This document shows positions 30,433 to 64,000 of a stretch of 64,000 nucleotides of DNA, piece by piece. Below the pieces are notes generated by a model. That model saw only the letters and a program-made list of their open reading frames with translations, was not told the origin of the DNA and did no database searches. Where the stretch lies: the NCBI GenBank assembly GCA_951406725.2, contig OX597836.1:42222001-42286000 (forward strand), written 5' to 3'. Each line of letters starts with the position of its first letter. The stretch's first letter is position 1. A program made the position numbers and the translations under genes. The DNA comes from Octopus vulgaris. Its lineage: Eukaryota.

Positions 30433-30505
<73 letters not shown>

Positions 30506-30510
30506 CATCC

Positions 30511-30568
<58 letters not shown>

Positions 30569-30570
30569 AT
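30000..30570. repeat. Compound (CTTT)/(CT)/(CTAT)n microsatellite
   Basis: Directly visible. Confidence 0.95.
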
Positions 30571-30644
30571 AACTATCACTTTTCTTCGTATATCTTTCCT
30601 GTATCTGTCTAGTATTTAGTGCTATCGGAGAGTCTATGTGACAT

Positions 30645-30825
30645 TTCAAATGCTGTATGCACGGATCTCAAACGCCTACCTCCTTTATCTCTTCCCAGGT
30701 AGAGAAACCTGTCGATATCACAATTTCTGTGGAGATTTCTGGTTGACATCAGAACCTAGCGGGTGTTAATGTCTATGCAGTGGATTTCTTCTACAGACCA
30801 GTCAAGCGTCCCAAATGTCGGAATT
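30645..30825 (-). mobile_element. R4/Dong-like non-LTR retrotransposon remnant (post-RT region)
   Basis: IPTFGTLDWSVEEIHCIDINTR*VLMSTRNLHRNCDIDRFLYLGRDKGGRRLRSV resembles FG...W...E...D..TRK...H...D.DRLY..R..GGRGL. Confidence 0.7.
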
Positions 30826-31140
30826 GTTCCAGGAATTTATGTATTCGTTGGAGGTACTCGAAGTTTTTCATGAGAACATACAGAACACTTTTGGCGCCCA
30901 TTATTTTGTGTGCTAAACCCAAAACATCTACTGATGTGTGTGTTTGTGTGTGTGTGTAGAAATTGAATTTCTCTTCCTGGCTGTGATTCGAATTTCCAAT
31001 CTAAAACTTCTCTCTTGCCATTCGACCTATGGTTCTGTCAATAAGGGAACCATGATTAAGGTATTTCCCTCTTGTAACGGTTAGTACTTCGTTGCAGTTG
31101 AGGGTCACCAATTGCAACGGTTTTTGTTAAGGTGTTAAAT

Positions 31141-33862: not shown

Positions 33863-34183
33863 TTATTCTACAATCTTTAATCGTTGTTGAATGTCGATTT
33901 CATATAAATTAGATCGCCGTCCGCAAAGTTTATGAATATAATTCTCTCGAGAACAATTAAAATAAAGCATGAAACTTTTGCAATGATGACAAAGAACAGG
34001 GATTGAGTCCATGAGGAGTCCAGCCCGTTCTTCATTTTGGGTGAGTTTATCTACCAGCAGTATTTTCAAGGACTGGTACTTGGCAATAGCATCGGAATAT
34101 CGTAGCTTTTGTTTCTCATTTACACTTCGTTTCAATAGTTGTCTTATTTCGTTCAAAAGATTCACCAAATGAATCAGCTGGTT
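33863..34183 (-). CDS. Copy B terminal coding exon 10 ([15 protein letters not shown]...[11 protein letters not shown])
   Basis: acceptor tttctttttatttctag|AAC, phase 0 after LENPQ; contains ORF 33863-34168; AATAAA on the minus strand at 33703-33708. Confidence 0.75.
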   Translation of the reverse strand, partial: NQLIHLVNLLNEIRQLLKRSVNEKQKLRYSDAIAKYQSLKILLVDKLTQNEERAGLLMDSIPVLCHHCKSFMLYFNCSRENYIHKLCGRRSNLYEIDIQQRLKIVE

Positions 34184-43500: not shown

Positions 43501-45048
43501 TTGTATGAATATATAAACACACTTACCTTTGGTACACCTGGACAGGTGAAAGATAAACATGTTCATCTAAGTGGGGTGATGAAAAGTTACTGGTTTTAAG
43601 GCTATCGAGAAAGATCTGGCTGGGGGTAAAACAGTTCTTTTACAGGGCTTAGAAAAACTGAAGGACTGCTGCAGGAGATGTGTGAATCTGAGAGGGGAAT
43701 ATCATCGTCATCATCATTTAAAGTCCACCTTCCATGCTGGCATGGGTTGGACAGTTTGATAGGAGCTGACCAGGCATGAGCCTGTGCTAGACTTCTGTGT
43801 CTGTTTTGGCACAGTTTTTACACCTGGATTCCTGTCCTAACACCAACCACCTGGCAATAAAATCATAATTAATTGATCCTCCTCTATTTTCTTTTATCAA
43901 AACTTGGAACTTTTCAGCGTCCTCTTGTGTGTACATAATCACATGTTTTATGAGGGGGTGCTGGAAAGTGCCTGGCTTTAAGGATATCGTGAAAGACCTA
44001 GTTGGGAGCCCAACTTTCTAAATTCTTTTACAGGACTTAGAAAAACTGAAGGACCTCTGCAGCAAATGTGAGAATCTGCGAGGGGAATATGTTGAGTAAA
44101 ATCATAATTAACTGATCCTCCTGCACTTTCCTTAACTCAAAGCCAGGAACTTTCTCAGCATCCCCTCATGTCCACATACACTTAACAACCACATGACAGA
44201 ATCTATAATGTAGTCTTCAGCTTTGCATACATGGTACATGTTGGGCTATGGGTCTGTGGATTGTAACTAGTCTTGCAGTCGGTTTACCTACATGTCAGAC
44301 ATGCGCATAGTCAGGAGAAAGGCCCCTGACTAAACAACAACAACAACAACAACAACACCATCACACCGACTCATAAAGGCCAGTTTCCCAGTTTCCATGG
44401 TGTAAATATTTCCCACCTGGATAGGACACCAGTACCTTGCAGGATTACTCAGTTTTTGCCAGCTGACTGGACTGGAGCAATGAGAAAATGAAGTATTTTA
44501 TTCAAGAACACAACACATCGCCCACTCCAGGAATTGAAACCGCAATCTTATGATCATGAGTCTAACACTAAGACCTGCGCCTCCACTCATGGCAACTATT
44601 ACCAGACACAAACCACATTCTGTCACATATTACACATGACCACAACTGCAAATCAACAAAGAAGCTTCTATGTGGATACTCAACTTGCTAGAAATAGATA
44701 CCAATCAAAATTTCCCCTGCAAATCACTGCCTTATTAATAAAAGGGCACATTAGACAATGTACCCCCTGTTTCACTACACATAAGAAAAAGGTTAGACTT
44801 TTTACAGCTGGTAGACGTTTGATCATAGATCTGCTCAACAAGTACTGACCTGGGGCCAAATAAAACCACCACCACCACCACCATCACCACCATGAGAGAC
44901 ATAATACAGTTATTACCAACAAATGAGAGGCTGTAGGCCAGGGTAGAGGCACATTTGATCTTCGCATCCTGCACCATCTGTGGGCTCGCATCATTAACGG
45001 TCATGTTGTAACCCATTTCTGCAAAACTGAGAAACAAATCAAGCAGTT

Positions 45049-45318: not shown

Positions 45319-48300
45319 AGAGAGAGAGAGAGTGGGAGGGAGAGAGATTCTCATCTGACTTGTACGACATACTTCAAGGCTTCCACATGATTTCCCCGCA
45401 TATGGGCATTGTCTGCCATGCTATTGTACAGCAGCACCTGTCGGTACTGGATGTTTCTCAATTTAAATACATCCAAAGCCTTCTTGTAGTGCTCCATGGC
45501 TTCTTCGTATTCTCCATAACCTGTGGAAAACCCAAGGAAATATTCTGTGTTACAATGATGCCCAAAGTAATAGCTACACAAACAACAACAGCAACAGCAA
45601 CATCTACAAATAATAAAAAAGCAGCAGACAACATCACTGGCAATGGTAGCCTCAAACAGTAACTCAACATTGTCAGAAATAACAGCTAAATTTCACTCAA
45701 ATCACACTGAGTCATCTTACAAAAAGGAAGAGCACACTAGATGATGTAGTCCTAGATATACATAGCAAATGATATGATCAGATAGAACACCTTCGATCAG
45801 AGGTCATTCTATCAAAACTGACCTGGAGGTCAGCAACAATAACAGCAGCAGCAACAACAACAACAGACCAATAAGTATTAAAAATAAGTAATGGGTGTAT
45901 ATGCATTGTACAACAGCACAGTATCAACTGATAAGCCTTTCATATACCCAGTAGCGTATTATGATTTCATAACGAGATATGGCGTCTCAACCAGTAATTA
46001 ATAAACTTAATGACTCACATGTATTACATAGTGGTAATGTGATTCAAGTGTTAATTTGTATTCCATTGCCTTTTCAATATAGCATGGTGTGTTCAATTCA
46101 CACAGCAGACAAATGATGTTTATCATCAATTATTCATTAAAAGGCTCCGACATGGTTGTGTGGTAAGAACATTCCTGCTCAACCAAAGGGTTCTGAGTTC
46201 TCCCCCACTGCATTACACTTTGGACAGGTGTCTTTTGCTATAACCTTAGGCTGGCCAAAGCCTTATGAGTGGATCTGGTGGAAAGAAACTGAAAAAAGCC
46301 CATCGTATATGTATACATATATACAAATACAAGTAAATAAATGAAGTTGAATGCAGATGCTATTCAAATTCTTTTACTATCGACATATGTTTCGAAGACA
46401 ACATTGGTTTTATTCCAAAGGAATAAACGGTGTCAATTACAATCTTCTCATCAGGAAAGAAAGAGAACCTATCTCAACATTTTCCATGTTAACAGTAAAC
46501 AAAGGATAATTCATTCATCCATTTATATATACAAATATATATGTATATTTTTTCGTTTTTTAAAGCATTCACTCATTACAAGATCCTTAGAGCACTGAAA
46601 ACCTAAGAGTTACTAGAATAAAATGGACACCAGACAGAAGTCAATAGTTGAAGATGTACATTAGACTTAAAAGACTGAAGGACATATTAAAGCGGAAAAA
46701 AAGACTGTGGAAGGGAATTCCAAAGTTCAGAGGTGTGAGGGAAGAAACTGGTTCTGTAAAGGGCTTTACGGCGCGTAGGAGGTTGCACGGGATACTGATG
46801 GATGCAAGTCTGGTTGATCGGTGATAAGTTCTTGGAGGAGGAACTAGAGAAAAGAGCTCAGCTGAACAATGTCTATGGAAATACTTATAGAAAAGGGACA
46901 AGGAAGACCCACATGATGACGATGAGAGAGTGAATCCAATTTAGAAGATAGATCAGGACCAATAGAATATGAATACAGCATCGAATGCAGCCCAACAGAG
47001 TGAAACAATCTGCAGGAGTACCTGCCCATAAGTGAGAACAGTACTCAATGCATCTCTTATGATAAAAGGCAGATTTTCTCTGCCTCTGAAACCGTTCGTT
47101 TTTTATACAATTCTACAATATAGAATTTCTTCAATTGGAATTTACCTATCATTTTTCCAAGTAGAATCCATTGGGTCATGGCATGTAATGTTTTTTCAAT
47201 TTCACCCCCAATTAAGCAAAAATTCGAGAAAACTCAATATTTTATGATTTCCCTCTTTCATTTCAAGTGCTTCACTCCTACCATTACCACTACACTTTCT
47301 CCTCCTTTCTCTTTGCAAGTGTGCAACAATTAAAGTAAAAGTATTTATATAAAAGGGATGAGCAATTAATACTGGTCATCCTTTTTGCTACAAGAAGATC
47401 CACTATGGTCTTATATGCTACACCACTGGTTTTGAATTCATATTAATCAAATTAATATTCAATTTTTCACCCTTATTATGTGTGTGTGTATTAGCAATTC
47501 GTATAAAATTGCATCAATGACTTGAACTTGAATAAGTGGTTTGTTGTTATTATTATTACTGTTTGACTATTGTAATCACGTTTGTTGATTCCTCGTTAGG
47601 GAAACGTTGTTGTGTTGCATTTGTTAAATAATTGTAAACCGTAACCCTCCCCCTTTCGGAGAAGGGGCTTTGGTTATTGTTTTAAAATTGGACGATGCAA
47701 GCTTATCATTTCGGATGAATGCACGATGGCCCACAGAGGTGCTCTTGAGGCACTAGATAGATCTCTCAGAGACATCAAACACTCTTCAGCTCCCATGGGA
47801 GGCATAACAATTCTTCTTTCAGGGAACTTCCGACAAACACTTCCCGTTATTCCCAAAGGGACTAGAACTGATGCAGTAAGTGCGTGTCTTAAGTCATCCA
47901 CATTGTGGCCACTGGTGAAGACTCTCAAACTTCACACCAATATGCGTGCTCATATGCAACGTAATATCACATCAGCAGCATTTTCTCACACCCTCCTTGC
48001 ACTTGGCGAAGGCAAAATACCAGGGGATGAAAATGGTAATATTGCCATCGATTCCATTTGTACCATTGTAAAAACACCTTCTGATCTCAGAGATGCAGTG
48101 TTCCCAGATCTACAAGCTAATTATCAGAATATGGATTGGATTGGCCAAAGGGCTATTCTGGCCCCGAGGAATAAAACTGTTCACCATATTAATGATGAAA
48201 TGCTAAAACTCATTCCTGGAGATGTCTATGTATAAGTCTATTGATACAACTCCTGACCCAGAGGACGTCATCAACTATCCAATAGAGGTACTCAATTCCT

Positions 48301-48638: not shown

Positions 48639-49606
48639 GTATGGATGGATGCATGCATGCATGCATGCATGCATATGTATATATATATATGCATATATAT
48701 GTATATGGGTTATTCCATATCAAATCATCCAGTTTCAGAAAAATTTCCCTGGTCACCCCCTCAGATCCCTCTGAAAAAATTCATACCAGCTCCTGCAGAA
48801 TTAATATGATTCACATTTGTGTCTGACCTAAGTATGTTTTAAAATTATGACTTCTTTGGGCATGTGTTCAAGGTTATCAGACAAAGAAGGTTGCTCAAGG
48901 AGCTGCCTTCCAAATGTTTATGTACATACATATATAGGGATGGGAGCATGCATATATGGATATATGTATAGAATGTTAATAAAGTATAGAAAACATGCTT
49001 TATAAAACATACACGTATTTTGGTAAATTACTGCTAGTATTACGTAATTGCTTTTAGAAACATTATATAATCTCGTAAACACCTCTTCAGTATTTAGCAA
49101 AATATACAAAGAATGGTGCTAAATGCTCAACATTCCTGTTAAGCATATTATCTACATCAGTGGAATGACAAAATCTACACACCATCGTCATATCATACCT
49201 GGTAAATCTGTCAATGATACACCATATGCTATATTCATAAAAGCTTGTTCTTCTTCATTACCAAATAACAGGGAGTTTTGTAGACATGCTTGGAAAAACT
49301 GTCTTGAATCTCTAGGGTGACATAGCATCAGTATATCTGAGGCTTTTAATGTCATCTAAAAGACAAAGACAGTAACATGTGTTAATATTTTGTCTGTAGG
49401 GATAATGTGGTGAGCTGGCAGAACCATTAGCGCACTAAACAGAATGCTTGGTGGCATTTTGTCTGTCTTCGTGTTCTGAGTTCAAATCAATTTTCCTCTT
49501 CCCAGAAATTACTGGCCTTGTAGCAAAATTTGAAATCAACGTTATTATGAAAAATATTAATGATTTCAAATCTTTACTGCTGCAGGGAAATAATAATAAT
49601 AATAAT

Positions 49607-49649
<43 letters not shown>

Positions 49650-51570
49650 TTAATAATCATAATAAAAAAAAAAATAATAATGATAATAATAATAATTCTT
49701 TCTACTACTTTTCCCTTTTTTGTCAGTGTTGATAACTTTAAGTTTCACATCAGATCGTTTGCAAGTCCTTGAGAATGCAGCATATACCTGACCTATTTCT
49801 TTTACTACCCACAAGGGGCTAAACACAGAGGGGAGAAACAAGGACACACAAACGGATTAAGTCAATTACATTGACTCCAGTGCGTAACTGGTACTTGATT
49901 TATCGACCCCGAAAGAATGAAAAGCAAAGTCGACCTCGGCGGAATTTGAACTCACAACGTAGCGGCAGAAGAAATACGTATTTCCTTACTACCCACAAGG
50001 GGCTAAATACAGAGAGGACAAACAAGCTCAGACAAACGAATTAAGTCGATTACATCGACCTCAGTGCATAACTGGTACTTAACTTATCGACCCTGAAAGG
50101 ACGAAAGGCAAAGTCGACCTCAGCGGAATTTGAACTCAGAACGTAACGGCAGACGAAATATGGCTAAGCATTTCGTCCGGCGTGCTGACGTTTCTGCCAG
50201 CTCGCCACCTCATACCTGACAGCATATACCTGGCCATGGCTGAATACAGGTTCAGGTAAGAATAGCCCCATTTTATTAAAAGTCTTCAGTTGTGATTTAC
50301 TGATAGCCACTCCATATGACAGGCGAAAGGGGAACTGGTGAATGGCAAGTTTTGGATGTGCATGCAAACTCTTATATGGACCTCCATGGGCCATATGGAC
50401 CCCCATGGGCCATATGGCCCTCAATTGAGAACCAATGGTAAAGATGTGGGAAGATGTAACTCAGGTTAAACGAAAATGCGACATATGAAAGACTGACTTA
50501 CAACACAAGATAGAAGACACGTTGTTAAGGACAAAATATCTTACCTCATAATAAACTCCATATGTCCTACCATCTGAGGGTGCTTCAATCCCTTTCTTCA
50601 AGATAAATGAAATATTTTCCCAGTTATTCTTCATTATTCCAAGTGCTTCATATATGAGGCCTTTATCATAAATATCTTGAGCCTTCATCAAACTTTTCCC
50701 GATAATGTTTGTATATTTGAGCTTTACCAAATCATTGCTGTGTACATTGTCAATCTGTTGCATAGAAAGTACACGTACTAATTCTTGTACTTGGAAATTC
50801 TGTAATTCTAAATCTGAACTGATCAAACCTTGTTCAACAAGCGGCATCAGAACACGTATCATTGAAGCTGGTTGACTAGAAGAACCAGTCATATCAACAG
50901 CTTCCTCAATACCAAATCTTCCAGGAAAATATGAAAGCACTTTGAGAGCTTCTTGCTGTTCGAGAGAGAGTTGAGAAAAGTACTTGTCCATTTCTTGTTT
51001 GATCTTACGTCTGTTAATTGTACATTCGTCCAGCCAGTCATTGAGCTTGGTTTCATCACAAATCATTTTGTAGATATCATTAAAAGAGAAATTATGACGA
51101 AACTGGGAGAATTTTTCTGCAAAGTAAATAAGAAGTCCTGGCAGGCCACAGGCATATCTGATGATGTTGTGTATTTGTTCTTTGTTCTCATCATCCGTCT
51201 CAATGTCTGAACAGCGACCGAAAAGAAGCTGGGCATCTTTAATGGACAATGGACTCACTTTACACTTTCCAAACCTGATTCCATCAAACTGAAATGGTTC
51301 TCCACCACTTAAAATGAGAATGATTTTTAGATTTCTGTGCAGTGGAAAGCCATTGTCACAAAGCTCCTGGAAACCTGGAAGGAAGCTTTCTTGAATGTTC
51401 TGGAAATCATCAAAAATACAAATTTTCCATTTCGTGTTGGTGATAGTGGAACAATTGGTGAATGTATTGTACATGTTGGAAATATCAGACCAACTGCTAT
51501 TATTAGAAATATGGATGTGTTTTATGTGGAGTCTTTCGGGGTTGATTTCATCCTTCAATTCTTGACAGAC
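33863..51570 (-). CDS. Copy B: paralogous NB-ARC-like + TPR gene, exons 2-10 (798 codons + stop); Walker A exon not found in window
   Basis: join(complement 50545-51570, 49199-49355, 45373-45520, 44917-45026, 43110-43223, 42543-42686, 41554-41665, 36332-36596, 33863-34183). All introns are GT-AG and the frame is open to TAA; exon lengths equal copy A. Confidence 0.82.
34590..34855 (-). mobile_element. RTE-clade LINE 3' fragment
   Basis: [41 protein letters not shown] resembles the RTE C-terminal M...R.PK.LL.G.L..G.R..GRP..R.KD motif. Confidence 0.65.
34857..35080 (-). mobile_element. Near-full-length SINE at the left edge of the A/B homology
   Basis: Same SINE family. Confidence 0.85.
36332..36596 (-). 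CDS. Copy B exon 9, TPR
   Basis: 265 bp; [27 protein letters not shown]...LENPQ. Confidence 0.85.
39462..39513 (+). ncRNA. Minimal type-I hammerhead ribozyme, unit 1
   Basis: tgag-CTGATGA-t.aga.agt.gtc.gtttt.gac.taa.tct.t-GAAA-cgtacg-TT-ctca; predicted cleavage after GUU at 39509. Confidence 0.72.
40005..40056 (+). ncRNA. Minimal type-I hammerhead ribozyme, unit 2
   Basis: Identical to unit 1; predicted cleavage after 40052. Confidence 0.72.
41554..41665 (-). CDS. Copy B exon 8, TPR
   Basis: 112 bp; nucleotide-identical to 5431-5542. Confidence 0.83.
42543..42686 (-). CDS. Copy B exon 7, TPR
   Basis: 144 bp; [47 protein letters not shown]. Confidence 0.85.
43110..43223 (-). CDS. Copy B exon 6, TPR
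   Basis: 114 bp; [37 protein letters not shown]. Confidence 0.85.
43229..43497. repeat. (GAA)n/(GAACAA) expansion, about 90 triplets, abutting the exon 6 acceptor of copy B
   Basis: Only about 4 triplets at the paralogous site (9081-9094). Confidence 0.95.
44917..45026 (-). CDS. Copy B exon 5, TPR
   Basis: 110 bp; [36 protein letters not shown]. Confidence 0.8.
45373..45520 (-). CDS. Copy B exon 4, TPR
   Basis: 148 bp; [48 protein letters not shown]. Confidence 0.85.
46625..47050 (-). mobile_element. CR1/L2-like LINE 3' fragment, copy B only
   Basis: [19 protein letters not shown] / [30 protein letters not shown], frameshifted. Confidence 0.65.
47053..48517 (+). mobile_element. Internally deleted Helitron carrying a PIF1-family helicase fragment, copy B only
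   Basis: [25 protein letters not shown]...[21 protein letters not shown]...LHTNMRA...AILAPRN; 3' hairpin cccgagcatcgccggg then CTAG|t at 48514-48517; probable a|TC 5' end. Confidence 0.88.
49199..49355 (-). CDS. Copy B exon 3
   Basis: 157 bp; [16 protein letters not shown]...; same splice sites as copy A. Confidence 0.83.
49710..50370 (-). mobile_element. Helitron helicase C-terminal remnant split by a SINE dimer (about 49791-50219) with 13-bp TSD cagcatatacctg
   Basis: [38 protein letters not shown] continues as [17 protein letters not shown]; TSD at 49778-49790 and 50220-50232. Confidence 0.8.
50545..51570 (-). CDS. Copy B exon 2: NB-ARC core
   Basis: 1026 bp inside ORF 50461-51588; 27 aa differences from copy A in 342 codons (hand count). 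Confidence 0.9.
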
Positions 51571-52121
51571 CTGACATATTAGAAACATAACATTAGAACA
51601 AGTTCAAAGGTTTCCATAGATTCACTTATCAATTTATCGGTCTCTCAGTTTGTCTCTTTCTCTGTCTGACTTTATAATTCTCTCTCAATAACTGTCTCTT
51701 TGTCTATTCTTTTGTCTATGCATTAGTTCAGGGTATCCTTTATATTCCTTTATATTCATCTTACAGTTTGTCTAAGTATATTTCTGGATAACAGTTTGTC
51801 ACTTTGCCATTCAATCTCTTTAATTATCTTTAATTATCCAATGCTTTTTTACATGGCACCTTGCTTTTAAGATATCAATTCTTTGTGGTGGTGGTGGTGG
51901 TGGTGGTGGTGATGGTGTCTTTAGGAGCAGGTGAGGCTGTGTGGTAAGTAGCTTGCTTCCCAGTAACAGTAGATGAAAGCAGGTCAATAAAAAGAGACTA
52001 ATAGAATAAGTTTAAGAAAAAAAAGTACTAAGCCATACTTCCAGAATTTTTAAAGAAATTTGGGGATTTCAGCATGAAGTTCCCATGGGATACCTTCTGT
52101 TTTTTTACCTGAAGTTATTTG

Positions 52122-52183
<62 letters not shown>

Positions 52184-52694
52184 CTTTACTACCCACAAGG
52201 GGCTAAACACAGAGAAGACAAACAAGGACAGAGAAAGGGATCAAGTTGCTTCATCTCTTTTAATATCCATCTCTTATTTCATCTCTCTCTCTCTCATTCT
52301 CTGTCTATCAATTAACTAGTCTCTACATATATTCTTCTACCCATCAATAACTTCATTTATCTCTCTGGCTATTTAACTCATCGTCATCGTCATCATTTAA
52401 CGCCCACTTGTGCCACATTAAAAGCCCCTTCTACATTCTGTGGATATGATAATATATCTATAGGCACAGATAGAATGCCTTTCATTGAGTCTCAATCAGG
52501 GCAAGCCTGCAGCCAAACAAGAACCTGCACTGTCAAGCCAATCTACTAGAAAAAGCAGTCAAATCTCTCTCAAACTGCACCTCTTTTTTATAACATAGAA
52601 CAGGATACATTCAAGAATGTAGTCTTTCACACCTTTAAATAGACAGGATGGTTACAAGAGAAATACCTTTGATCATAGGTCAACCACCAACTCA

Positions 52695-53030
52695 GACAAA
52701 CGAATTAAGTCGATTACATCGACCTCAGTGCGTAACTGGTACTTAATTTATCGACCCTGAAAGGATGAAAGGCAAAGTCGACCTCGACGGAATTTGAACT
52801 CAAACGAAATGCCTATTTCTTTACTACCCACAAGGGGCTAAACACAGAGGGGACAAACAAGGACAGACAACGGATTAAGATGATTACATCGACCCCAGTG
52901 CGTAATTGGTACTTAATTTATCGACCCTGAAAGGATGAAAGGCAAAGTCGACCTTGACGGAATTTGAACTCAGAACGTAACGGCAGACGAAATATGGCTA
53001 CGCATTTCGTCCGACGTGCTAACGTGCTCG
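52695..53030 (-). mobile_element. SINE dimer at the breakpoint of A/B homology
   Basis: Begins immediately after the last homologous base. Confidence 0.85.
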
Positions 53031-53639
53031 CAGCCTTAATAACGCTTATAACATTCAAGCAACACAATCTTTGACCTAGTAACTCGGTTGATACTATGAC
53101 GCTTTCTCATAGCGGATTAATATGTAACAAAGCTCAATTATTAAACAAAACAGTACGAAATCAGGCAATGTCACTTTAATGGATGGAACGAGCTAATGTA
53201 CGACACATATCTCTTTACTCTCTTTTACTAGTTTCAGTCATTTGACTGTGGCCATGCTGGAGCACCACCTTTAGTCGAGCAAATTGACCCCAGGACTTAT
53301 TCTTTGTAAGCCTAGTACTTATTCTATCGGTTCTCTTTTGCCGAGCCACTAAGTTACGGGGACGTAAACACACCAGCATCGGTTGTCAAGCGATGTTAGG
53401 GGGACAGACACAGACACACAAACACATATACACACACATGTCCTTTACCTCCCCCACCTAAATCATAATTAGGCTGTCCGGTGACGGCTTAAAGAATAAT
53501 AAATCTGAACTCTTCAAAAGTATGGGGTAACTATCCAATTTAGTATAAAACTGTTTTAATTTTAACTGAACATAAACACACACACACACATATATATAAA
53601 TATAAATATAAATATAGGCGAAAGTAAAGAATACGTACA

Positions 53640-54250
53640 CCCGGGGTTTAGGGTTATGGTTAGGAGTTAAGGTTTAGGTTTAAGGTTTTGGTTACGCCGA
53701 AAACGGTGTATTTTTTGCATGGAATCAAGTACTCTGACCTCCTAATATGCTGTAGCCCCCTTTTTTTTTGTTCGGATAAAAAGCGGGTGGGAAACCGAAC
53801 CCCTCCAATCCCGAAATCATTGGAATTTTTTTTTTCTTTGAAAGAATTCCAGTGGCCCCCTAATATGCCACAAAACCCAACCAACTGGGGATCCGGAAAA
53901 CGGGGTGGGCTGGAAGCCTCGGAAATTTCACCCTCACCGCCATTGGGAAGTATACCCGCGCGATTTTCAATAATAAAAAAAAAACTAAGGTTTTTTGGGT
54001 GGAATCAAGTACCCTGACTTCTCATATGCTACAAACCCCTTATTTTCGTTTGGGAAAAAAATGGGGTGGGAAACCGGACCCCCTCCCTTATCCCGGAATT
54101 ATTGGAAAATTTTTTTTTTTTTTCATTGAATGAATTCCGGTGACCTCCTAATATGCCATAAAACCCCTTTCTTGGTCCGGAAAAGAGGGTGGGGTTGGGG
54201 TACAACCCTCGGAAATTCACCCCACCCCCATCATTCTCAAATATTTTTTT
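53640..54250. repeat. Degenerate telomere-like (TTAGGG) tract followed by two diverged units of about 280 bp
   Basis: gggtttagggttatggttagg...; ggaatcaagtac at 53721 and 54001. Confidence 0.65.
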
Positions 54251-54896
54251 GCTGTTTCTTTCTTTACTCATATTTTTAGGGCATCCAAAGGAGCATACAA
54301 GCGATCACCATTTTTAGATAAGATTTTGCAGAAATGTGTTTTCGAGAGTGTGCATTACATCAGATTGAAAATTCAAAGAAGGGCGATCTTTCGGTATGAG
54401 AACCGTGTTTATGAACTTCTTAAAACACGTGTATTTGTTTATGTTTCTGATGAACAAAGTATGTTTCAAACGGCGTTCTTTTCTGTATCTGTCTTCCTCA
54501 CTCACTCACGCTATTTCCTCCCTTGCCGTCTAATTTATTTTTTTACATATGTGGTGTGAGGGGAAAGGGGATCTTTTGAAGTAAGCGTGAAAGCGAAAGA
54601 GACTGAGAGAGCACGATTCGATCAGGGAATTTCTTTCGAAGTTGGCGTGCCGTGTGTGTGTATGTGTGTGTGTGTGTGTGTGTGCGTGTTTAATGGGGTG
54701 TGCAAGACAGAAAGTGTGGTGTGTATGTGAAGTTCTTTTGTTAGTGTAGTGCTGGTGTGTGTGTATGTGTGTGTGTGTGTGAGAGAGAGAGAGAAAACTG
54801 AAATTTTTTTAATTCACTTTTTGTAGTGAGTGAATGTGTGAGTGATTGAAAGGGAAGAGAGAGAGAGAGAGAGGTTATGTATGGATGAGTGGCTGC

Positions 54897-54950
<54 letters not shown>

Positions 54951-55111
54951 TTACACAAAACTTACCTACGTACACCTATCGCATGCATGTTTTTTGGACG
55001 CATACTTGTTATATTTACTTTTTTAATGAGTGAACGTGTGAGTGATTGACAGAGTAAAAGAGCAGTTGTTTTGTATGTATGTATGTATGTATGTATGTAT
55101 GCATGTATATA

Positions 55112-55746
55112 TCTTTATATATAAAAGTGAAGTTGTGTGTCTGTCTCCTACGATTTAGATTCCTAACTACTCCCACATTTTGCGGTGCGGTTAACCAAAA
55201 CCGGGTATCTTATAGTCGTGCAGGTTAACCAAAACCGGGTATCTTATAGTCGTGATTCATATCGAGCCCTTCTGGGTATTAGCAGCACGTCTATCTTAAA
55301 AGGTGTCGTTGCTAGGGCCAAAAACCCACTTTCACAAGTCCACTCCCATTCTTTTCTGTATCTGTCTTCCTCACTCACTCACGCTATTTCCTCCCTTCCC
55401 GTCTAACTCCCCTACACATTCTCTTTATAACTTCGTCAAACGGCGTTCTTTTCTGTATCTGTCTTCCTCACTCACGCTATTCCCTGCCTTCCCCTCTAAC
55501 TCCCCTTCACTTTCTCTTTATAACTTCGTCAAACGGCGTTCTTTTATGTATCTGTTTTCCTCACTCACTCACGCTATTTCCTCCCTTCTCGTCTAACTCC
55601 CCTTCACTTTCTCTTTCTAACTTCGTCAAACGGCGTTCTTTTATGTATCTGTCTGCATTCATAGAGACAATTATCATCGCCACCACCACCACCACGACAC
55701 AATCATGAGAACAAATATTATGAATCAGATATTTATTGCGTTCATT

Positions 55747-55781
<35 letters not shown>

Positions 55782-56081
55782 TCTATATATAAATATGTAT
55801 CTATAATGTATATATACAAAGTGTATATATCTGTATTTATGTATATTAAACTTTTTAATACTTTTTAATAGTTATATATATTTTTAAACAAATTATAAAT
55901 ATAATTCAATGATTTTTATTTTAAATTTAAATAATTTAAATTTTAATTTTATATTTTCTATATTATATTTTTATTTTTATGTTTTTGTTTTTGCTGTTCA
56001 TTTGCCTATTAGTGGTTTTAATCTCTAATTTAATTTATACATATATATATATAATTGTATACATTTGTATATATAATGCGT

Positions 56082-56158
<77 letters not shown>

Positions 56159-56989
56159 ATGTGTGCATTATGTGGTCGGTCGGTTGAGCTGAAAATATGC
56201 ACACCTATGTTAAAAGTGCTGGCAAGTTTGCATGACAACTAATTTTTTCCTCAAATGAAAGGCGTGACCTCTAGGACAAAATTCCTCATCTTATAAAATG
56301 TAGCCCCAGTAGACCCGAATGAAATCGGGTTAAATTAACCAAAATGAGAAAAGGGGTCTAAATGGGGCTGGAAGGGGATTAAAATTTAGGGGAGCGGGTG
56401 TTAAAGAATTCTCTGTTACATCAAGCTAAAAAATTTGTGCCAGCCTTTAATCGTCAATGTGTTGCCGTCCATGATAAAGAAGTTTTGAATGCTTGCCATG
56501 GTGAGTCTACTGTCGTGAGAAAGAATCACTTCAAAACTTGGTGTTTACGAATTTTCTTTTACATCAAGTTCAAAATTTTACGCCAGCCGTTAAACTGTCA
56601 ATACGTTGCTGTCCGTCGTTAAGAAATGCCAGCCATGGAGAAAGGAGAGAGAAACAAAGAGGGAGAATCAAATCATCATCATCATCATCGTTTAACGTCC
56701 GTTTTCCGTGCTAGCACGGGTTGGACAGTTTGACCGGGGTCTGGGAAGCCAGGAGGCTGCACCAGGCTCCAGTCTGATCTGGCAGTGTTTCTACAGGTGG
56801 ATGCCCTTCGTAACGCAAACCACTCTGTGGGTGTAGTGGATGCTTTTTACGTGCCACCGGCACAGAAGCCAGTCAAGGCGGCGCTGCAATCGGCCACGTT
56901 CGGATGGTGCATTTTACGTGCTGAAAGGAAGCAACAGAAAGAAACAACCACACTCTTACCCGCGCGTAGAGCGGGTCACCTTCAGCTAG
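55112..56989 (+). mobile_element. Non-autonomous Helitron ends (5' TC at 55112; 3' hairpin + CTAG at 56989), possibly one composite element
   Basis: 5' end matches the reverse complement of 58600-58731; 3' acccgc.gcgtaga.gcgggt...CTAG|t. Confidence 0.55.
55348..55655. repeat. Tandem repeat of about 95 bp, about 3.2 copies (partial copy at 54467-54532)
   Basis: tttt(c/a)tgtatctg at 55352, 55449, 55542 and 55639. Confidence 0.85.
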
Positions 56990-56997
56990 TATATATA

Positions 56998-57052
<55 letters not shown>

Positions 57053-57094
57053 CATAATTAAATCTCAGAATGAGATTGAAACAGTAATCGCTCG

Positions 57095-57266
57095 ATAATG
57101 TAAAGTATAGAAGCCATCTTATCATGGCTAACCACATTGGGAGGGGGTGTTACTGTAGCTTTATAGCCAGCTAGAGACGACGATCTCTTGGGGCTATAAA
57201 GCTACAGTAACACCCCCTCCCCAATGTGGTTAGCCATGATAAGATGGCTTCTATACTTTACATTAT
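57095..57266. repeat. Near-perfect palindrome, arms of about 74 bp
   Basis: 57095-57168 is the reverse complement of 57192-57266. Confidence 0.9.
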
Positions 57267-57275
57267 ATATATATA

Positions 57276-57774
57276 CTAGCAGTATCGCCCGGCGTTGCTC
57301 GGGTTTGTAAGGGAAATAACTATATAAGCATTTTTAGAGAGTTACTTCCCTTATAGATGCCAATTCGGGCTTTCTTAGCCATTTCTGTTTCTTCAAGCCA
57401 TGAAGTCGTTGTTCTAAAAGAACGTTGGTCTCCTTGACAACGCTTTACGACGTTGATTTCCTTACACTCCCTTCCCCACAGCTTCACGAGGGGGGAGAAG
57501 CAAACATAGGTGCAGGTGTTTGAGCGTGGACGCCAACTCCGCCGCCATCGACACACAAAAAATTATGCATTAAAATGGAATAAAAAATGATGTTAAATAA
57601 TTTTTAAAATCGTAGACTCATCGTAGACGTGCGCTAATAGCCAGACGGGCTCGATATTAATCACGACTATAAGATACCCGAATTTGGTTAAACTGCACCG
57701 CAAAATGTGGGAGGAGTTAGGAATCTAAATCGAAGGGGACAGACACTCACACAACTACAGTTTTATATATATAG

Positions 57775-57775
<1 letters not shown>
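57276..57775 (-). mobile_element. Non-autonomous Helitron
   Basis: Minus strand a|TC...acccgagcaacgccggg...CTAG|t. Confidence 0.8.
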
Positions 57776-57808
<33 letters not shown>

Positions 57809-57827
57809 ATACATAGATGTATGTGTT

Positions 57828-57871
<44 letters not shown>

Positions 57872-58337
57872 ATAGATAGATGTATATATATATATATATA
57901 CATCTATGTGTGTTTGTGTGTGTGTGAGTGTTGTGTATAGGTTTTATTTAAAGTGACCTAAAAGTAGGGATTGTATTTGTAAGGTCAAATCGAAAACAGG
58001 AAGAAAGGAATAAAGGAAAGAAAAAAAGAAAGAAAGAAAGAAAGGAGAGAGATAATACAGAGATGAAGACAGGGAAAGTGTACCAGTTAGTGGTCAGTCA
58101 AGATAACTCGACGGTAGGAGTGGGGAAAGATTAGGGTGATATAGAAAGAAAGGTATTAGAGTCTAAAGAGATTAAAGGGTAAAGAGTAAAGGAAGGTCAG
58201 ATAGCCGGAATGGGGGGGGGTAATATAGATATACATCTATCTATGTATATATATATATCATCATTATTGTTTAAAGTCTGCTTTCCATGTCAGCATAGAA
58301 AGCAGCCATTAAACGATGATGATGATGATATATAATA

Positions 58338-58731
58338 CTAGAAGTATCTCCCGGCGTTGCTCGGGTTTGTAAAGGAAATAACTATATAAGCATTTTTAGA
58401 GATGTAAAGTATAATAGCCATCTCAATATGGCTAACCAGAAAGGGGGGTGTTACTGTAGCTTTTTACGTTTTGAGATTTAATAATAGATCTTTAAAGAGT
58501 TACTTCCCTTATATTTGCCAAAAATGCATTAAAAATGGGAAAAATTGATGGTAAATTTTTTTTAAATCGTAGACTCATTGTAGACGCGCGCTAATACCCA
58601 GAAGGGTTCGATATGAATCACGACTATAAGATACCCGGTTTTGGTTAAACTGCACCGCAAAATGTGGGAGTAGTTAGGAATCTAAATCGTAGGAGACAGA
58701 CAGCACACAACCTCACTTTTATATATAAAGA
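58338..58731 (-). mobile_element. Non-autonomous Helitron, same family
   Basis: Same termini and hairpin. Confidence 0.8.
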
Positions 58732-59215
58732 TATTGCTCTACCATTGAAAGTTTAGGTAAACTTTGTCACTCACTCACTCTCATCCCACAACAAAAATAA
58801 AACGCATTAGTTACCCGATTTCGGCGCCAAAAATTGCAAAGGGAAAGTGCTTTAGGTTTTCAAATCTATTCTGTAATCTTGGATTATGATGTATTATATC
58901 CAGTGATTCTAACAGGTATATTTTGTTTTAATATTATACTTTTACTTTTTCACAGACACACACAAACTCTAACGTGATCTTTTTAGATGCATTCTTTACC
59001 ATTTTTTATCTGTCTACTGACTTCGTTACCACTAACTTCAGATCTTTTCGGTTTGACCGGCAGTTTTTTAAAATAATTTCCACGTAACAAAAAATTTTTA
59101 AACTTCGTATACTAGTAGAATGTGTTTATAAAACATCTTGTGTCATCCCTATTTATTTTATGTTCGGCCCTTGTGACCAATAAAAGAAAGTATTATTATT
59201 ATTATTATTATTATT

Positions 59216-59959
59216 TTCTTTTCCTTCTTTCTTCAAATTTTCTTCCGTTTCTCGCCAGGTGTTTTCCGTACACCTAGGGCAGAGAAGCTCATTGTATGCA
59301 TTCCCAGATTACACACGTAATTTCACAGATAAAATATGTAATTTAAAACATTAATAAATAAATAAATTTACGAATGGATGTTGTTTTCACAGCGATAATG
59401 CTCTTCTCAGTACATGAGTCGTTCCAGTTAATATGATTTTTTGCACTCCCTGAGGGATGGTAAGCCTAGTATCATTTTCAAATAGGTTTCAGTACCTTTT
59501 TTTTTAACATTCCTGGAGATCCTACAATCACTGGTACTGTAGTCGCCTTGAGATGCCACATTTTCTCAATTTCTATTAGCAAGTCTTTATATTTACTGAT
59601 CTTGTCAAATTCTTTCGCTGCTATATTGTGATCGCAAGGAATACTCATGTCAATTAATAAACACATCCTTTTTGTTTGATATTTTGTAATAATATCCGGT
59701 TTATTAGCTTTTATAGTTTTGTCGGTATGTACAGGGAAGTCCCTCAGTTACAGCTTCAGGATGGTGTTTATACCATTTGTCAGCGGTTTTGATTTTATAA
59801 TGCTGACATATTGCCTAGTGTAAATACTGGCCGACTCTGTCATGTCTTGCTTTATATTCTGCAGGTGCTAAGATTCTACACCCTGAGATTAGGTGGTCTA
59901 TAATTTCAATCTCATCGTTACAGAATCGGCATTTTGGGTCAGCTCCATTTTTTATCACA

Positions 59960-59962
<3 letters not shown>
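59216..59962 (-). mobile_element. R4/Dong-like retrotransposon 3' part (CCHC + RLE endonuclease) between (TAA)n tracts
   Basis: CRFCNDEIEIIDHLISGCRILAPAEYKARHDRVG...ANKPDII...CLLIDMSIPCDHNIAAKEFDKISKYKDL...VPVIVG. Confidence 0.88.
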
Positions 59963-60026
<64 letters not shown>

Positions 60027-60044
60027 TATTATTTATTATTATTA

Positions 60045-60139
<95 letters not shown>
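59963..60139. repeat. (TTA)n microsatellite
   Basis: Directly visible. Confidence 0.95.
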
Positions 60140-60600
60140 GGTGGCGAGCTGGCAGAACCGTTAGCACGTCTACACCAGGTTAAATGCTTAGTGGTATTTC
60201 GTCTGTTGCTACATTCTGAGTTCAAATTCTGCCGAGGTCGGCTTTGAATTTCATCCTTTCGGGGTCGATAAATTGAGTACCAGTTACGCACTGGGATCAA
60301 TGTAATCGACTTAATGCCTCTGTTTGTCCTTGTTTGTCCCCTCTGTGTTTAGCCCCTTGCGGGTAATAAAGAAATAGGTATTTCGTCTGCCGTTACGTTC
60401 TGAGTTCAAAATCCGCCGAGGTCGATTTTGCCTTTCATCCTTTCGATGTCGATAAATTAAGTACCAGTTTTGCACTGGGGTCGATGTAATCGACATAATC
60501 CCTTTGTCTGTCCTTGTTTGTCCCCTCTGTGTGTAGCCCCTTGCGGGCAGTAAAGAAATAAGAATCGTTAGCACGCCGATCGAAATGCTTAGCGCATATA
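60140..60600 (+). mobile_element. Full-length SINE plus tandem partial copy
   Basis: Starts ggtggcgagctggcagaaccgttagcac; B-box-like gagttcaaatt. Confidence 0.85.
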
Positions 60601-61049
60601 AATGAGAATGGGCGATCATTCGTTTTGAGACGACACAAAAAAACAAAAACAAAAAACAAAAAAAAACTCTGTTAGTTTCCGTAATCACTTGTTGCCTTGA
60701 CAACTGCGTGCTTGTTCTGTTAGACGTGTGGCAGTGGAAATTAATGGGTGTACGTACGTGCTTGTTTTGTATGTGTGAGTGTGTGTGTGTGTGTGTGTGG
60801 GTGTGTGTGTGTGTGTGTGTGTGCTTATGTATTTATGTGTGCGGAATGTAGATATAACAAAAACAATGTCGCATTTTAAAGATGGAGAAAAAAAAGCCTT
60901 GCACATTTGTTCTTACCTGGTTCAGGTGTGTGTGTAAAAATCTGTAAATTTCCTAGAAGAAAACGAGATTTTACATACGCACATGTAGCAGGTAACAACA
61001 AATATACGAGGCTTTTTTTTTCTCCAAGTTTAAAATGCGACCTCCATAC

Positions 61050-61665
61050 GTGGAGGTTCGTGGCTTAGTGGTTAGAGCAGCGGACTGGCGGTCGAGGGAT
61101 CGCGGGTTCGAATCTCAGACCGGGCGATGTGTGTGTTTATGAGCGAAAACATCTAAGCTCCACGCGGCTCCGGCACAAGGTAATGGCGAATCTTCTGCTG
61201 ACTCTTTCGCCACAACTTTCTCTCACTCTTTCCTCTTGCAGCTCACCTGCGACGGACCGGTGTCCCGTCCAGGTGGGGAACCTATACGCCAAGGAGTCCG
61301 GGAAACCGGCCCTTATGAGCCAAGGGTGGCACGAAAAGGAAGAAACAAACTACTATATTAATGTGTGCGTGTGTGTGTGCGTGGAGGCACATGGCCTAGT
61401 GTTTAGAGCAACGGACTCGTGGTCGAGGGATCGCGGGTTCGAATCTCAGACCGGGCGATGTGTGTGTTTATGAGCGAAAACACCTAAGCTCCACGCGGCT
61501 CCGGCAGAAGGTAATGGCGAAACTTCTGCTGATTCTCACTCTTTCCTCCTGCATCTTGCAGCTCACCTGCGACGGACCGGCGTCCCGTCCAGGTGGGGAA
61601 CCTATAGGCCAAGGAAACCGGGAAACCGGTCCTTATGAGCCAGTGGTGGCTTGTGAAGGAACAAA
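61050..61665 (+). mobile_element. Two tandem copies of a second tRNA-derived SINE (about 61050-61350 and 61381-61665)
   Basis: Pol III A box TGGCTTAGTGG and B box GGTTCGAATCT, followed by a shared body; related tail at about 28985-29120. Confidence 0.85.
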
Positions 61666-61842
61666 CATTCCGTACACATAGATAAATAAAAACAGAAAAA
61701 GCATGCTCACACTCACACACACACACACACGTACACTCAATAGCTTCTTCCAAGCGTCCATCGGAAACTAACGGATATTCGTTTTTATTGCGTACTCAAA
61801 ATGAATGATCGCCTGAGAACGTATGAGTGAGAGACGAGTGTG

Positions 61843-61884
<42 letters not shown>

Positions 61885-62101
61885 TGTGTGTGTACGTGTG
61901 TGTGTGTATGCGGCCTGTACGGCAAAATCTGACAAGCTGACTCACGGACATGTTACATCCTGGCTGCGACAAGTCGAATTTAATTTCAGCAAGAATCTCG
62001 TTACTCGGTCGCTCGACCTGCTAGAAATAGCAGCCAAATCTTCCTCGGATCACACCCTCGGGTAAAGAAGGGTGCGTTAAAACGGAATCACTCTAGATAG
62101 C

Positions 62102-62529
62102 GGATCTTTTCGGTTTGAACGGCAGTTTTTTTAAAATAATTTCCACGTAACTAAACACTTTTAAACTTCGTATACTGGTAGAATGTGTTTATAAAACATC
62201 TTTTTCTCTTGGCTTTATTGAGAAAATTCTATAGTTTGTAAGATATTTGTTGTTTTTTTCTTCAATTTCTGCAATTTCAACCAATCAATGACGTCTATTG
62301 AGGTAAAAGAAACATTCTGTGCCGTAAGAATATGTCCCTCGTTTAAGAAACATTGGGTTTATTTACACTTCTGAAGAAAAAAAGATACCCTTCCCCCCAC
62401 CCCTAACCCTAACTAACTCTAATCCTAAAACAGATTGAAATGCAATAGATCGATACTAGGATCATAATTATGGGTGACAATTTCATATGACACCGCTAGA
62501 AAAAACTGCCCTTCAAACCGAAAAGATCC
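62102..62529. mobile_element. MITE with about 29-bp TIR (GGATCTTTTCGGTTTGAACGGCAGTTTTT) and internal telomere-like repeats
   Basis: TIRs visible; ccctaaccctaac at about 62400; flanking direct repeat gaatcactctagat. Confidence 0.8.
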
Positions 62530-62757
62530 CAGAATCACTCTAGATGGCCCTTAACCAAGACACCTCCGTATCCCTGACCCACCTCTACATACTCCTATCA
62601 TAAAACCTAGTCACATACACACGTAGTTTACTATTCCCACTGTGTCAACAAACAATCGCCTACAACAAACATACCAGTCGATCAGAGCCAATTATTCTCT
62701 TTGATATACTCCCCGGTGTATTATTGTCTCAAGAGCATGTTCTGCATAAGTATAATT

Positions 62758-63195
62758 GGGTCTTTTCCTTTTGAACGGCAGTTTTCAACACAATTTCTAG
62801 TTAACTAAACACTTTAAAACTTCGTATACTGGTAGAATGTGTCAAAATAAAACATTTTTTTCTCTTGGCTTTCTTGAGGAAATTGTAATTTGTTTGTTTA
62901 ACGTAGTTTAATTTTACAATTAAGAAAAAAAAATAGGGTTAGGGTTAGTTTGAGGGTTAGTGACAGGATGTTGTCTCAGTTTTAGACGCAGCAAATGATT
63001 TTAGTTCAATCGATTGGTTAAAATTGCCGAAATGCTCGGATTTTCAGACGAAATATCTTACAAACTATAGAATTTTCTCAATAAAGCCAAGAGAAAAAGA
63101 TGTTTTATAAACACATTCTACCAGTATACGAAGTATAAAATTTTTTAGTTACCTAGAAATTATGTTACAAACTGCCGTTCAAAAGGAAAAGATCC
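62758..63195. mobile_element. Related MITE with long imperfect inverted arms
   Basis: ggtcttttccttttgaacggcagttt / aaactgccgttcaaaaggaaaagatcc; tataatt on both flanks; internal tagggttagggttag. Confidence 0.8.
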
Positions 63196-63557
63196 GTATA
63201 ATTTGTTTAGTGAATGTAGACATGTTTGGTTCTTCTGTCGGTCAGAGCGAAACAGAACGGGGTGTTTGTATGGAAGGATGGTCGGGTGATAATTACGTTA
63301 GGTGTGAAACTGACGAAGAAAAACAGCATGAAACTGCCAGTCTCCGAGATTAGTTAAAATTTCTATATCCTGATATAAATATTAATCTTTACACGGGATT
63401 CACATGGTTCCGTGTTCAGTCCCACTGCGTGGCACCTTGGGCAAGTGTCTTCTACTATAGCCCCAGGCTGACCGTGAGACAAATACTCTTTGCCCTTAAG
63501 TCACGTGCCTTCAAAATCTATATATATGTAGCGGGTATGATTCTTGGCCACTACTTC

Positions 63558-63737
63558 TGGTCTGATCTGAGGGTAGCCCTTAAAAGGACGGTTATCGCAA
63601 TTAGATCCGATCCAAGAATAGTCCTAAAAAGCACTGTTATCGTAATTAGATCGGATCTGAGAGTAATCCTAAAAAGGACTGTTATCGCATTCAGATCAGA
63701 CTTGAATTAGCCCTGAGAAGGACTGTGGTCGTAATCA
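63558..63737. repeat. 45-bp tandem repeat, 4 diverged copies
   Basis: Visible as the RSDLRVxLKRTVIxI repeat in ORF 63429-63710. Confidence 0.8.
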
Positions 63738-64000
63738 GCAAAACTGGACAGACGAAAGCAGTAGTTGAAAGGACGAGCAGACAAGAGGTGTAAGTTTATA
63801 CAGCGATTTATTTCAGGCGTGAAATAGCAGTACAAATGTTCGAGGTGGCGTGAGTGGCGTGCGTGGCAGGCGAGAGGGACACAATTTACATCAGTCGAGT
63901 GCCAAAAATCCAACTACCTTTACAGCGATTTATCATGTCTATTTATACCAAAATATCAGCAGTGATGTTTAGCCAGTGTCCAATAGAATGGCAGGTAGGT

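What the first reader, a model, noticed from the sequence alone, without database searches (positions are those of the whole stretch)
51571..64000. Copy B lacks the P-loop exon yet keeps nine intact exons: decoy/partner, displaced exon, or young pseudogene
Seen: intron 1 homology continues to B 52694 / A 26311, only about 175 bp short of the exon 1 donor, then stops at a SINE dimer. I found no FVGR/GKT exon in the remaining 11.3 kb, which is essentially all repeats. Exons 2-10 have no stop or frameshift despite about 68 amino-acid changes in exons 2-9. Known: paired and P-loop-independent NLRs occur in plants. Inference: (i) a P-loop-less partner or decoy using another start, (ii) exon 1 pushed beyond the window by insertions, or (iii) recent decapitation.
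Basis: partly seen in the sequence, partly recalled or inferred. Interest (0 to 1): 0.7.

Follow-up and report, generated by a model that had tools for sequence, protein, structure and literature searches.

The report
Decapitated copy in octopus NLR-like array
One copy in a 16-gene octopus cluster of immune-receptor-like genes has lost its first coding exon through a deletion that a sister copy shares, and it is most likely a young pseudogene rather than a working decoy.

Summary
Copy B is one of 16 tandem STAND-NTPase/TPR genes. Exons 2-10 are intact (798 codons) and the Walker A exon is absent. No exon 1 lies in the 17.8 kb up to the next gene, so the displaced-exon idea is refuted.

Against its closest copy (c09), B has a clean 2.7-2.9 kb deletion at 52694/52695. 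A second copy (c07) has the identical junction. The three copies differ by only 0.5-0.8% in the flanks, so the loss is recent. B, c07 and c09 also lack the one 5'-UTR exon I could map, which is single-copy and spliced in a likely-RNA contig.

Of the 68 amino-acid differences from copy A, 61 are shared with exon-1-bearing copies, and B's exon 2 has no private change. The intact frame therefore says little about selection.

Best reading (0.75): a young decapitated pseudogene in a birth-and-death cluster. A truncated antagonist stays open (about 0.13): B would encode 766 aa from Met33, the same form as an annotated O. sinensis isoform. B's own expression was not resolved.

The parts
50545..51570 (-). 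Copy B exon 2 (342 codons): Walker B (ICIFDD), helical and likely winged-helix part of the NTPase, start of the helical repeats
   Evidence: 7 nt from c09, no B-private substitution
51472..51474 (-). First in-frame ATG of B (Met33 of exon 2); would give 766 aa. An out-of-frame ATG at 51551 opens a 9-codon upstream ORF
   Evidence: same start and length as O. sinensis isoform P0026
51571..52694 (-). Remnant of intron 1 (3' part, acceptor intact, donor lost)
52694..52695 (.). Deletion junction 1: 2,698 bp of c09-type DNA missing (176 bp intron, 180 bp exon 1, 2,342 bp upstream); about 2,860-2,870 bp if one extra SINE unit of c09 is counted. Short imperfect microhomology
   Evidence: junction found only here and in c07; 281 bp across it identical in c07
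52695..53025 (-). SINE-like dimer, the surviving part of the SINE multimer upstream of exon 1 in c09
53708..53709 (.). Deletion junction 2: 2,029 bp of c15-type DNA missing, including the mapped non-coding exon 0 and about 1.1 kb in front of it; shared by c07 and c09
   Evidence: exon 0 mapped
53026..64000 (.). Inherited upstream region, collinear with c09 and c07 (0.5% and 0.7% substitutions); repeat-rich; no exon 1
49199..49355 (-). Copy B exon 3
45373..45520 (-). Copy B exon 4
44917..45026 (-). Copy B exon 5
43110..43223 (-). Copy B exon 6
42543..42686 (-). Copy B exon 7
41554..41665 (-). Copy B exon 8 (identical to A and c07)
36332..36596 (-). Copy B exon 9 (A/c12/c13 type, not c09/c07 type)
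33863..34183 (-). Copy B exon 10 with stop codon
26486..26665 (-). Copy A first coding exon (60 codons; FVGRHDE and Walker A GLPYVGKT): the exon that B lacks

Best explanation
Copy B lost its first coding exon in a 2.7-2.9 kb deletion that copy c07 shares, lacks the one mapped 5'-UTR exon, and is most likely a young non-functional duplicate whose remaining exons have not yet decayed. Shown: the array, both deletions, their sharing, the small flank divergence and the mosaic make-up of B. Inferred order: (1) a c15-like unit duplicated and lost a 2,029-bp segment holding exon 0 and probably its promoter, giving the c09/c07/B lineage; (2) one such unit lost exon 1 in a break between a SINE and intron 1, probably joined at a short microhomology; (3) the decapitated 5' end was copied once more, giving B and c07; (4) unequal crossing-over or gene conversion gave B an A/c12-like 3' half and c07 a c02/c09-like one. 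Any protein from Met33 would lack the predicted first two core strands and the P-loop helix, so it would not be expected to bind nucleotide.
For: Clean deletion against c09 and identical junction in c07. Flank divergence 0.51% (B-c09), 0.66% (B-c07), 0.77% (c07-c09) over about 10 kb. No exon 1 before the next gene or as an orphan elsewhere. Exon 0 is single-copy in the genome and missing from B's upstream. B's upstream shares only a SINE bin with the upstream intervals of the A-type copies. 61 of 68 aa differences from A are shared with exon-1-bearing copies. B-private changes are 8 nonsynonymous to 2 synonymous, as neutrality predicts (0.79), while the 12 other young copies give 106:49, below neutral (p=0.002). 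From substitutions alone the chance of no disabling hit per lineage is 0.6-0.7. 6 of the 12 young exon-1-bearing copies also carry one-base frameshifts in this assembly.
Against: With the flank indel rate included, the chance that one copy stays intact drops to 0.09-0.18, and both B and c07 are intact. That rate is probably too high for exons and recent exchanges reset the clock, but the signal leans against neutrality. B's 8:2 does not differ from 106:49 (Fisher p=0.73), so the selection test has no power. The lesion sits in two copies. An annotated O. sinensis isoform has the same 766-aa form, and the three O. bimaculoides models found also lack exon 1. The upstream exon used by the A-type copies is not mapped, and c09-lineage copies could have another promoter. 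Absence of B transcripts was not shown.
Confidence: 0.75

Rival explanations
1. B and c07 are transcribed from an intron 1 or repeat-borne start and make a 766-aa protein without the P-loop. It keeps the helical and TPR domains and dampens or partners the full-length neighbours, as NRG1C does in Brassicaceae.
For: Both copies keep exons 2-10 and all splice sites. Met33 has A at -3. O. sinensis XP_036354516.1 (isoform X2, P0026) has the same start and length. Likely-RNA contigs of the family run from exon 2 into intron 1 (X12, X13, X17), which could be retention or an intronic start. Intact-frame probability 0.09-0.18 per copy if indels count.
Against: P0026 is an isoform of an intact gene and is a gene-model prediction. 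The intronic contigs may be pre-mRNA or DNA. Exon 0 is deleted upstream of B. An out-of-frame ATG precedes Met33. The lesion is very young, whereas NRG1C is conserved across Brassicaceae. No purifying signal on B.
Confidence: 0.13
2. B's exons are used through read-through from the upstream copy c05. c05 exon 1 or exon 9 (both end in phase 0) splices to B exon 2 (phase 0), giving a full-length hybrid or a tandem fusion.
For: Same strand and compatible phases; B's exon 2 acceptor is intact.
Against: It needs a bypass of c05's last exon 17.8 kb upstream, or a skip of nine exons over 35 kb. No read evidence was obtained.
Confidence: 0.05
3. The loss, or the doubling of the decapitated copy, is an assembly error in a repeat-rich tandem array.
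For: Several one-base frameshifts in other copies sit in homopolymers, and contigs from all 4 runs laid on c01 carry the extra base, so the assembly may have small errors. No independent contig was seen to bridge the junction.
Against: The same junction stands in two places 93 kb apart whose flanks differ by 65 substitutions in 9,853 sites and whose 3' halves are of different types. The 644-kb stretch has no N.
Confidence: 0.05
4. Exon 1 was pushed beyond the window by insertions and still splices to 51570.
For: None found.
Against: No exon 1 in 51571-69411, and the next gene's last exon begins at 69412. The upstream DNA matches what lies upstream of exon 1 in c09. All 14 exon 1 copies belong to other genes.
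Confidence: 0.02

Closest known systems
Duplicated (unprocessed) pseudogenes in birth-and-death immune gene clusters (general knowledge, recalled)
   Same: Tandem array, sequence exchange between copies, introns kept, a lesion that removes the start and an essential motif, broken neighbours.
   Different: The rest of the frame is still intact in both decapitated copies, and silence was not shown.
Arabidopsis NRG1C and N. benthamiana NRG2 (bioRxiv 10.1101/2021.01.27.428547; abstract and 12 passages seen)
   Same: NRG1C is an N-terminally truncated copy lacking part of the NB domain, clustered with full-length paralogues.
   Different: NRG1C is conserved across Brassicaceae, pathogen-induced and shown to antagonise NRG1A/B; it has LRRs. 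B is very young, has TPRs and has no expression evidence. The same paper treats the poorly conserved truncated ADR1-L3 as a likely pseudogene, which fits B better.
Animal NB-ARC-TPR proteins of corals (PMC10236652; 5 passages seen) and the archaeal STAND-TPR structure 6mfv
   Same: NB-ARC-like NTPase followed by TPRs. Foldseek rank 2 is 6mfv (E 1.3e-6, 769 columns, but TM only 0.25). Atlas hits at 0.95-0.98 are mostly NB-ARC/nSTAND clusters.
   Different: The octopod proteins have no N-terminal effector domain, score below Pfam's NB-ARC cut-off (18.2 against 23.5 bits), and had no relatives outside octopods.
P-loop-independent plant NLRs such as RRS1 and ADR1-L2 (recalled; not read here)
   Same: The idea of an NLR-like protein acting without nucleotide binding.
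   Different: As recalled, those keep a whole NB domain whose P-loop is dispensable. B physically lacks residues 1-92, including two core strands.

Membership tests
STAND NTPase (NB-ARC-like) with TPRs: intact copies | Walker A GxxxxGK[T/S] after a core strand, preceded by an hhGRE-type motif (motifs recalled) | tested here: met
   FVGRHDE and GLPYVGKT in exon 1; strand 43-48 then helix 54-68 in the model
STAND NTPase (NB-ARC-like) with TPRs: intact copies | Walker B hhhhD[D/E] and a GxP motif in the helical domain (motifs recalled) | tested here: met
   ICIFDD on strand 108-114 and CGLP in exon 2
STAND NTPase (NB-ARC-like) with TPRs: intact copies | Pfam NB-ARC match above the curated cut-off | tested here: not met
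   PF00931 18.2 bits, cut-off 23.5, E 0.0016; Atlas features point to NB-ARC/nSTAND1 at 0.98
STAND NTPase (NB-ARC-like) with TPRs: intact copies | Winged-helix domain after the NTPase | tested here: inconclusive
   pLDDT mostly below 50 over residues 195-345; whole-chain match to 6mfv is weak
STAND NTPase (NB-ARC-like) with TPRs: intact copies | C-terminal superstructure repeats | tested here: met
   PF13424 TPR_12 54.7 bits, cut-off 30.1; helical repeats at pLDDT mostly 80-90
STAND NTPase (NB-ARC-like) with TPRs: copy B | Walker A present | tested here: not met
   exon deleted
NRG1C-type truncated antagonist | N-terminal truncation into the NB domain, clustered with full-length paralogues | tested here: met
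NRG1C-type truncated antagonist | Conserved as a truncated gene across species | tested here: inconclusive
   lesion younger than about 0.7% flank divergence; no stand-alone truncated O. sinensis gene starting at Met33 among the proteins retrieved; O. bimaculoides models lack exon 1 for unknown reasons
NRG1C-type truncated antagonist | Expressed and inducible | tested here: inconclusive
   only contigs were available; no listed contig could be assigned to B
NRG1C-type truncated antagonist | Antagonises the full-length neighbours | not testable with these tools
   needs cell assays
Duplicated pseudogene | Intron-containing copy with a lesion removing the start codon and an essential motif | tested here: met
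Duplicated pseudogene | Neutral evolution after the lesion | tested here: inconclusive
   8:2 fits neutrality but does not differ from the other copies (p=0.73); intact-frame probability 0.09-0.68 by model
Duplicated pseudogene | No protein product | not testable with these tools
   needs copy-specific RNA, ribosome or peptide data

The most novel reading that the evidence does not exclude
B and c07 fix in DNA a P-loop-less 766-aa form that this octopus STAND-TPR family already makes as an isoform. They would act as newly born dominant-negative or decoy partners of their full-length neighbours: an animal counterpart of NRG1C caught at its origin.
Probability: 0.13. Interest if true: 0.7.

Novelty: new member of a known kind. 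Interest (0 to 1): 0.28.

Why it matters
As a pseudogene, B is ordinary. It does give a dated example of how copies die in a fast-turning cluster: first the 5'-UTR exon, then the P-loop exon, with the 3' halves still being exchanged. The cluster is the more useful lead: 16 NLR-like STAND-TPR genes, two old and 14 young, with pN/pS 0.73 in the TPR exons against 0.43 in exon 2. I found no paper on it (searches; that library lacks most subscription journals, and supplements were not searched). If B were translated, it would be a rare animal case of a truncated NLR-like regulator arising in place.

Tried and rejected
DNA contigs of 4 runs (X1, X3, X5, X2, of 24 listed) laid over the junction: swamped by SINE matches. 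No listed piece bridges 52694/52695; three pieces stop 7-17 bp short on the intron side. No verdict.

No run was on record as RNA in the run search; this is not evidence on expression. Four 'RNA?' runs were laid on c01. Of the two contigs I assigned by their listed alleles, one fits c15 (2 mismatches of 32 sites, B 10) and one fits c16 (2 of 30, B 19). The variant table was cut (40 of 149 rows shown) and contigs show presence only, so nothing follows for B.

A second loose end (X13, place 8925) maps to another contig (C11) and was dropped as a 5' exon candidate. The block shared by A-type upstream regions (window about 30470-30870) contains a dispersed repeat, so it could not be called their exon 0.

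Automatic gene models that start at Met33 (for B, P0033) or fuse a retrotransposon-like frame to exon 1 (P0001, P0022) were not taken as evidence of expression.

The PDB sequence search found only kinesin light chain TPRs. The wide HMMER search stayed in the queue and gave no result, so the family's range beyond octopods rests on word-based searches only. Earlier scan notes: nothing found. Paper searches on the gene identifiers gave 0 hits.
Full report
Setting. The window is G000:C23:42222001-42286000. Proteins matching exon 2 come from Octopus vulgaris, O. sinensis, O. bimaculoides and Argonauta hians (14 hits; 15 hits), so this is an octopus gene. Exon 2 has 16 full copies in G000, all on C23 within about 580 kb. 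I fetched the region and numbered them c01-c16; A is c03 and B is c04. All coordinates below are counted from the window start, also beyond 64000. The gene has ten coding exons and about 858 aa. c01-c10 lie on the minus strand and c11-c16 on the plus strand. c15 and c16 are the divergent copies and match O. sinensis P0004 and P0029 at mostly 90-100% per exon; Argonauta has two genes labelled after the same pair.

What the protein is. Exon 1 encodes FVGRHDE and GLPYVGKT; exon 2 holds ICIFDD and CGLP. These fit the recalled STAND/NB-ARC motifs. Pfam gives TPR_12 above its cut-off, and NB-ARC, AAA_16 and ATPase_2 below theirs. The Atlas puts residues 15-340 next to NB-ARC/nSTAND1 clusters at 0.98. 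The AlphaFold model (12 sequences, mean pLDDT 67) has a five-strand core at 43-48, 74-80, 108-114, 141-146 and 160-165, a poorly predicted middle, and confident helical repeats. Foldseek's second hit is the STAND-TPR structure 6mfv, at a low TM-score of 0.25. An immune role is inferred from architecture and clustering only.

Observation. B's exons 2-10 are intact, with 68 aa differences from A in exons 2-9. Fourteen of 16 copies have exon 1; B and c07 do not. The next gene's last exon is at 69412-69732. In 51571-69411 a profile of exon 1, tblastn and blastn find nothing, while the same searches find exon 1 in A and in the divergent c16. Displacement is refuted.

The lesion. B's closest relative at the 5' end is c09 (7 nt in exon 2, 11 nt in exons 2-6). 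B's intron remnant aligns to c09's intron 1, and B's DNA beyond 52695 aligns to what lies upstream of c09's exon 1, for about 15 kb at 97-99%. The missing piece is c09 208148-210845, 2,698 bp: 176 bp of intron, exon 1 and 2,342 bp upstream. One further 172-bp SINE unit also differs. The two ends share a short imperfect match, which suggests microhomology-mediated joining (inference). c07 has the same junction with 281 identical bases across it, and the junction occurs only in these two places. Flank divergence outside simple repeats is 50 of 9,863 sites for B-c09, 65 of 9,853 for B-c07 and 82 of 10,685 for c07-c09. The loss is therefore recent relative to most duplications (mean pS 0.07 among exon-1-bearing young copies).

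The 5' end of the family. Four likely-RNA runs were laid on c01 ('RNA' is the tool's guess). Three of the four show the exon 1 to exon 2 splice. One 1,970-nt contig (X14) continues 170 nt beyond the AG in front of the ATG. Those letters map to 408583-408612, followed by GTAAGT, 8 kb upstream of c15's exon 1, and the contig's alleles fit c15. The 'exon 1' of the finding is thus the first coding exon, at least in c15, and a non-coding exon 0 precedes it. That exon is single-copy in G000. B, c07 and c09 share c15-type upstream DNA but lack 407354-409382, the 2,029 bp holding exon 0. I read this as a loss, because the segment holds unique, spliced sequence. One X13 contig joins into an acceptor about 53 bp upstream of the ATG of A-type copies, but its upstream letters were not printed, so that exon is unmapped. 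B's upstream shares only a SINE bin with A-type upstream intervals. B lacks the one start region I could map; that it lacks every promoter is inferred.

Is the intact frame meaningful? Mostly not. B is a mosaic: c09-like in exons 2-6 and A/c12/c13-like in exons 8-9, whereas c07's exons 9-10 are identical to c02 and c09. 61 of the 68 differences from A are states found in exon-1-bearing copies. B has 10 private substitutions, none in exon 2, 8 of them nonsynonymous. That fits neutrality but is not distinguishable from the other copies' 106:49 (p=0.73). These counts cover c01-c14; c15 and c16 were left out because exon 8 was not recovered by the nucleotide search. The chance of escaping a disabling change is 0.60-0.68 from substitutions alone and 0.09-0.18 with the flank indel rate. 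The second figure leans against a pseudogene, given two intact copies, but it uses an intergenic indel rate that may include assembly errors and ignores recent exchanges with intact copies. Six other copies carry one-base frameshifts in the assembly (c01, c02, c06, c11 in a C run of exon 1; c09 exon 8; c10 exon 4). Some may be errors, since contigs from all 4 runs laid on c01 have the extra base.

What B could encode. The first in-frame ATG is Met33 of exon 2, behind a 9-codon out-of-frame ORF. The product would be 766 aa, lacking residues 1-92: two of five core strands, the P-loop and its helix. It would keep Walker B, the helical part and all TPRs. Nucleotide binding would not be expected (established knowledge of P-loop folds). 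O. sinensis XP_036354516.1 is a 766-aa isoform with this start from an intact gene. The three O. bimaculoides models retrieved also lack exon 1, and a search with exon 1 found no protein of that species among 7 hits. These may reflect intron retention, gaps or real short forms; I could not tell.

Comparison with known cases. NRG1C shows that a truncated cluster member can antagonise its neighbours. The same preprint calls the poorly conserved ADR1-L3 a likely pseudogene and says function needs testing (abstract and passages). Coral NB-ARC proteins mostly carry TPRs, and many truncated forms there were put down to truncated annotation (passages). I found no paper on this octopus family (search listings only). 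Most subscription papers and all supplements were outside these searches.

Verdict. A real, recent, shared deletion. Young pseudogene 0.75; truncated regulator 0.13; read-through use 0.05; assembly error 0.05; displaced exon 0.02. The junction was not confirmed in independent DNA and B's expression is unresolved. Interest 0.28.

Noticed in passing
G000:C23:42147354-42729321 (window coordinates -74647 to 507321): 16-copy STAND-TPR array with a strand switch between c10 and c11; pN/pS 0.43 in exon 2 and 0.73 in exons 3-10 among 12 young copies; patchwork exchange between copies. No paper on it found.
   Followed up: partly
L065:4443-4612 (G000:C23:42630443-42630612): Single-copy non-coding exon spliced to c15's first coding exon. 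None of the 14 young copies has it, which raises the question of how they are transcribed.
   Followed up: partly
window 26655-26635 and the same place in c01, c02, c06, c11: A run of six C in exon 1 has five or seven C in four copies, shifting the frame right after the start: assembly error or a mutable slippage site.
   Followed up: partly
G000:C23:42326226-42326337 (c06 exon 8): A one-base loss and a one-base gain within the exon restore the frame.
   Followed up: no
G000:C23:42514770-42515645 (c11): Exon 10 is present twice in tandem; c14 likewise repeats the last 261 bp of intron 1 with part of exon 2.
   Followed up: no
L031, window coordinates 66258-66560: A retrotransposon-like frame (label recalled from its sequence) lies upstream of B, c09 and c15; an automatic model fuses it to exon 1 of c09 (P0001).
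   Followed up: no
G000:C24:10771055-10771177: A distant Walker A exon (46% over 41 aa, E 2.5e-5), probably another STAND gene.
   Followed up: no
P0012, P0024, P0034 (O. bimaculoides models): All three lack the Walker A exon; gap, annotation or real loss is unknown.
   Followed up: partly
window 10843-14280: A 3.4-kb AT-rich satellite of about 40-bp period with internal inversions in an intron of copy A, absent from B.
   Followed up: no
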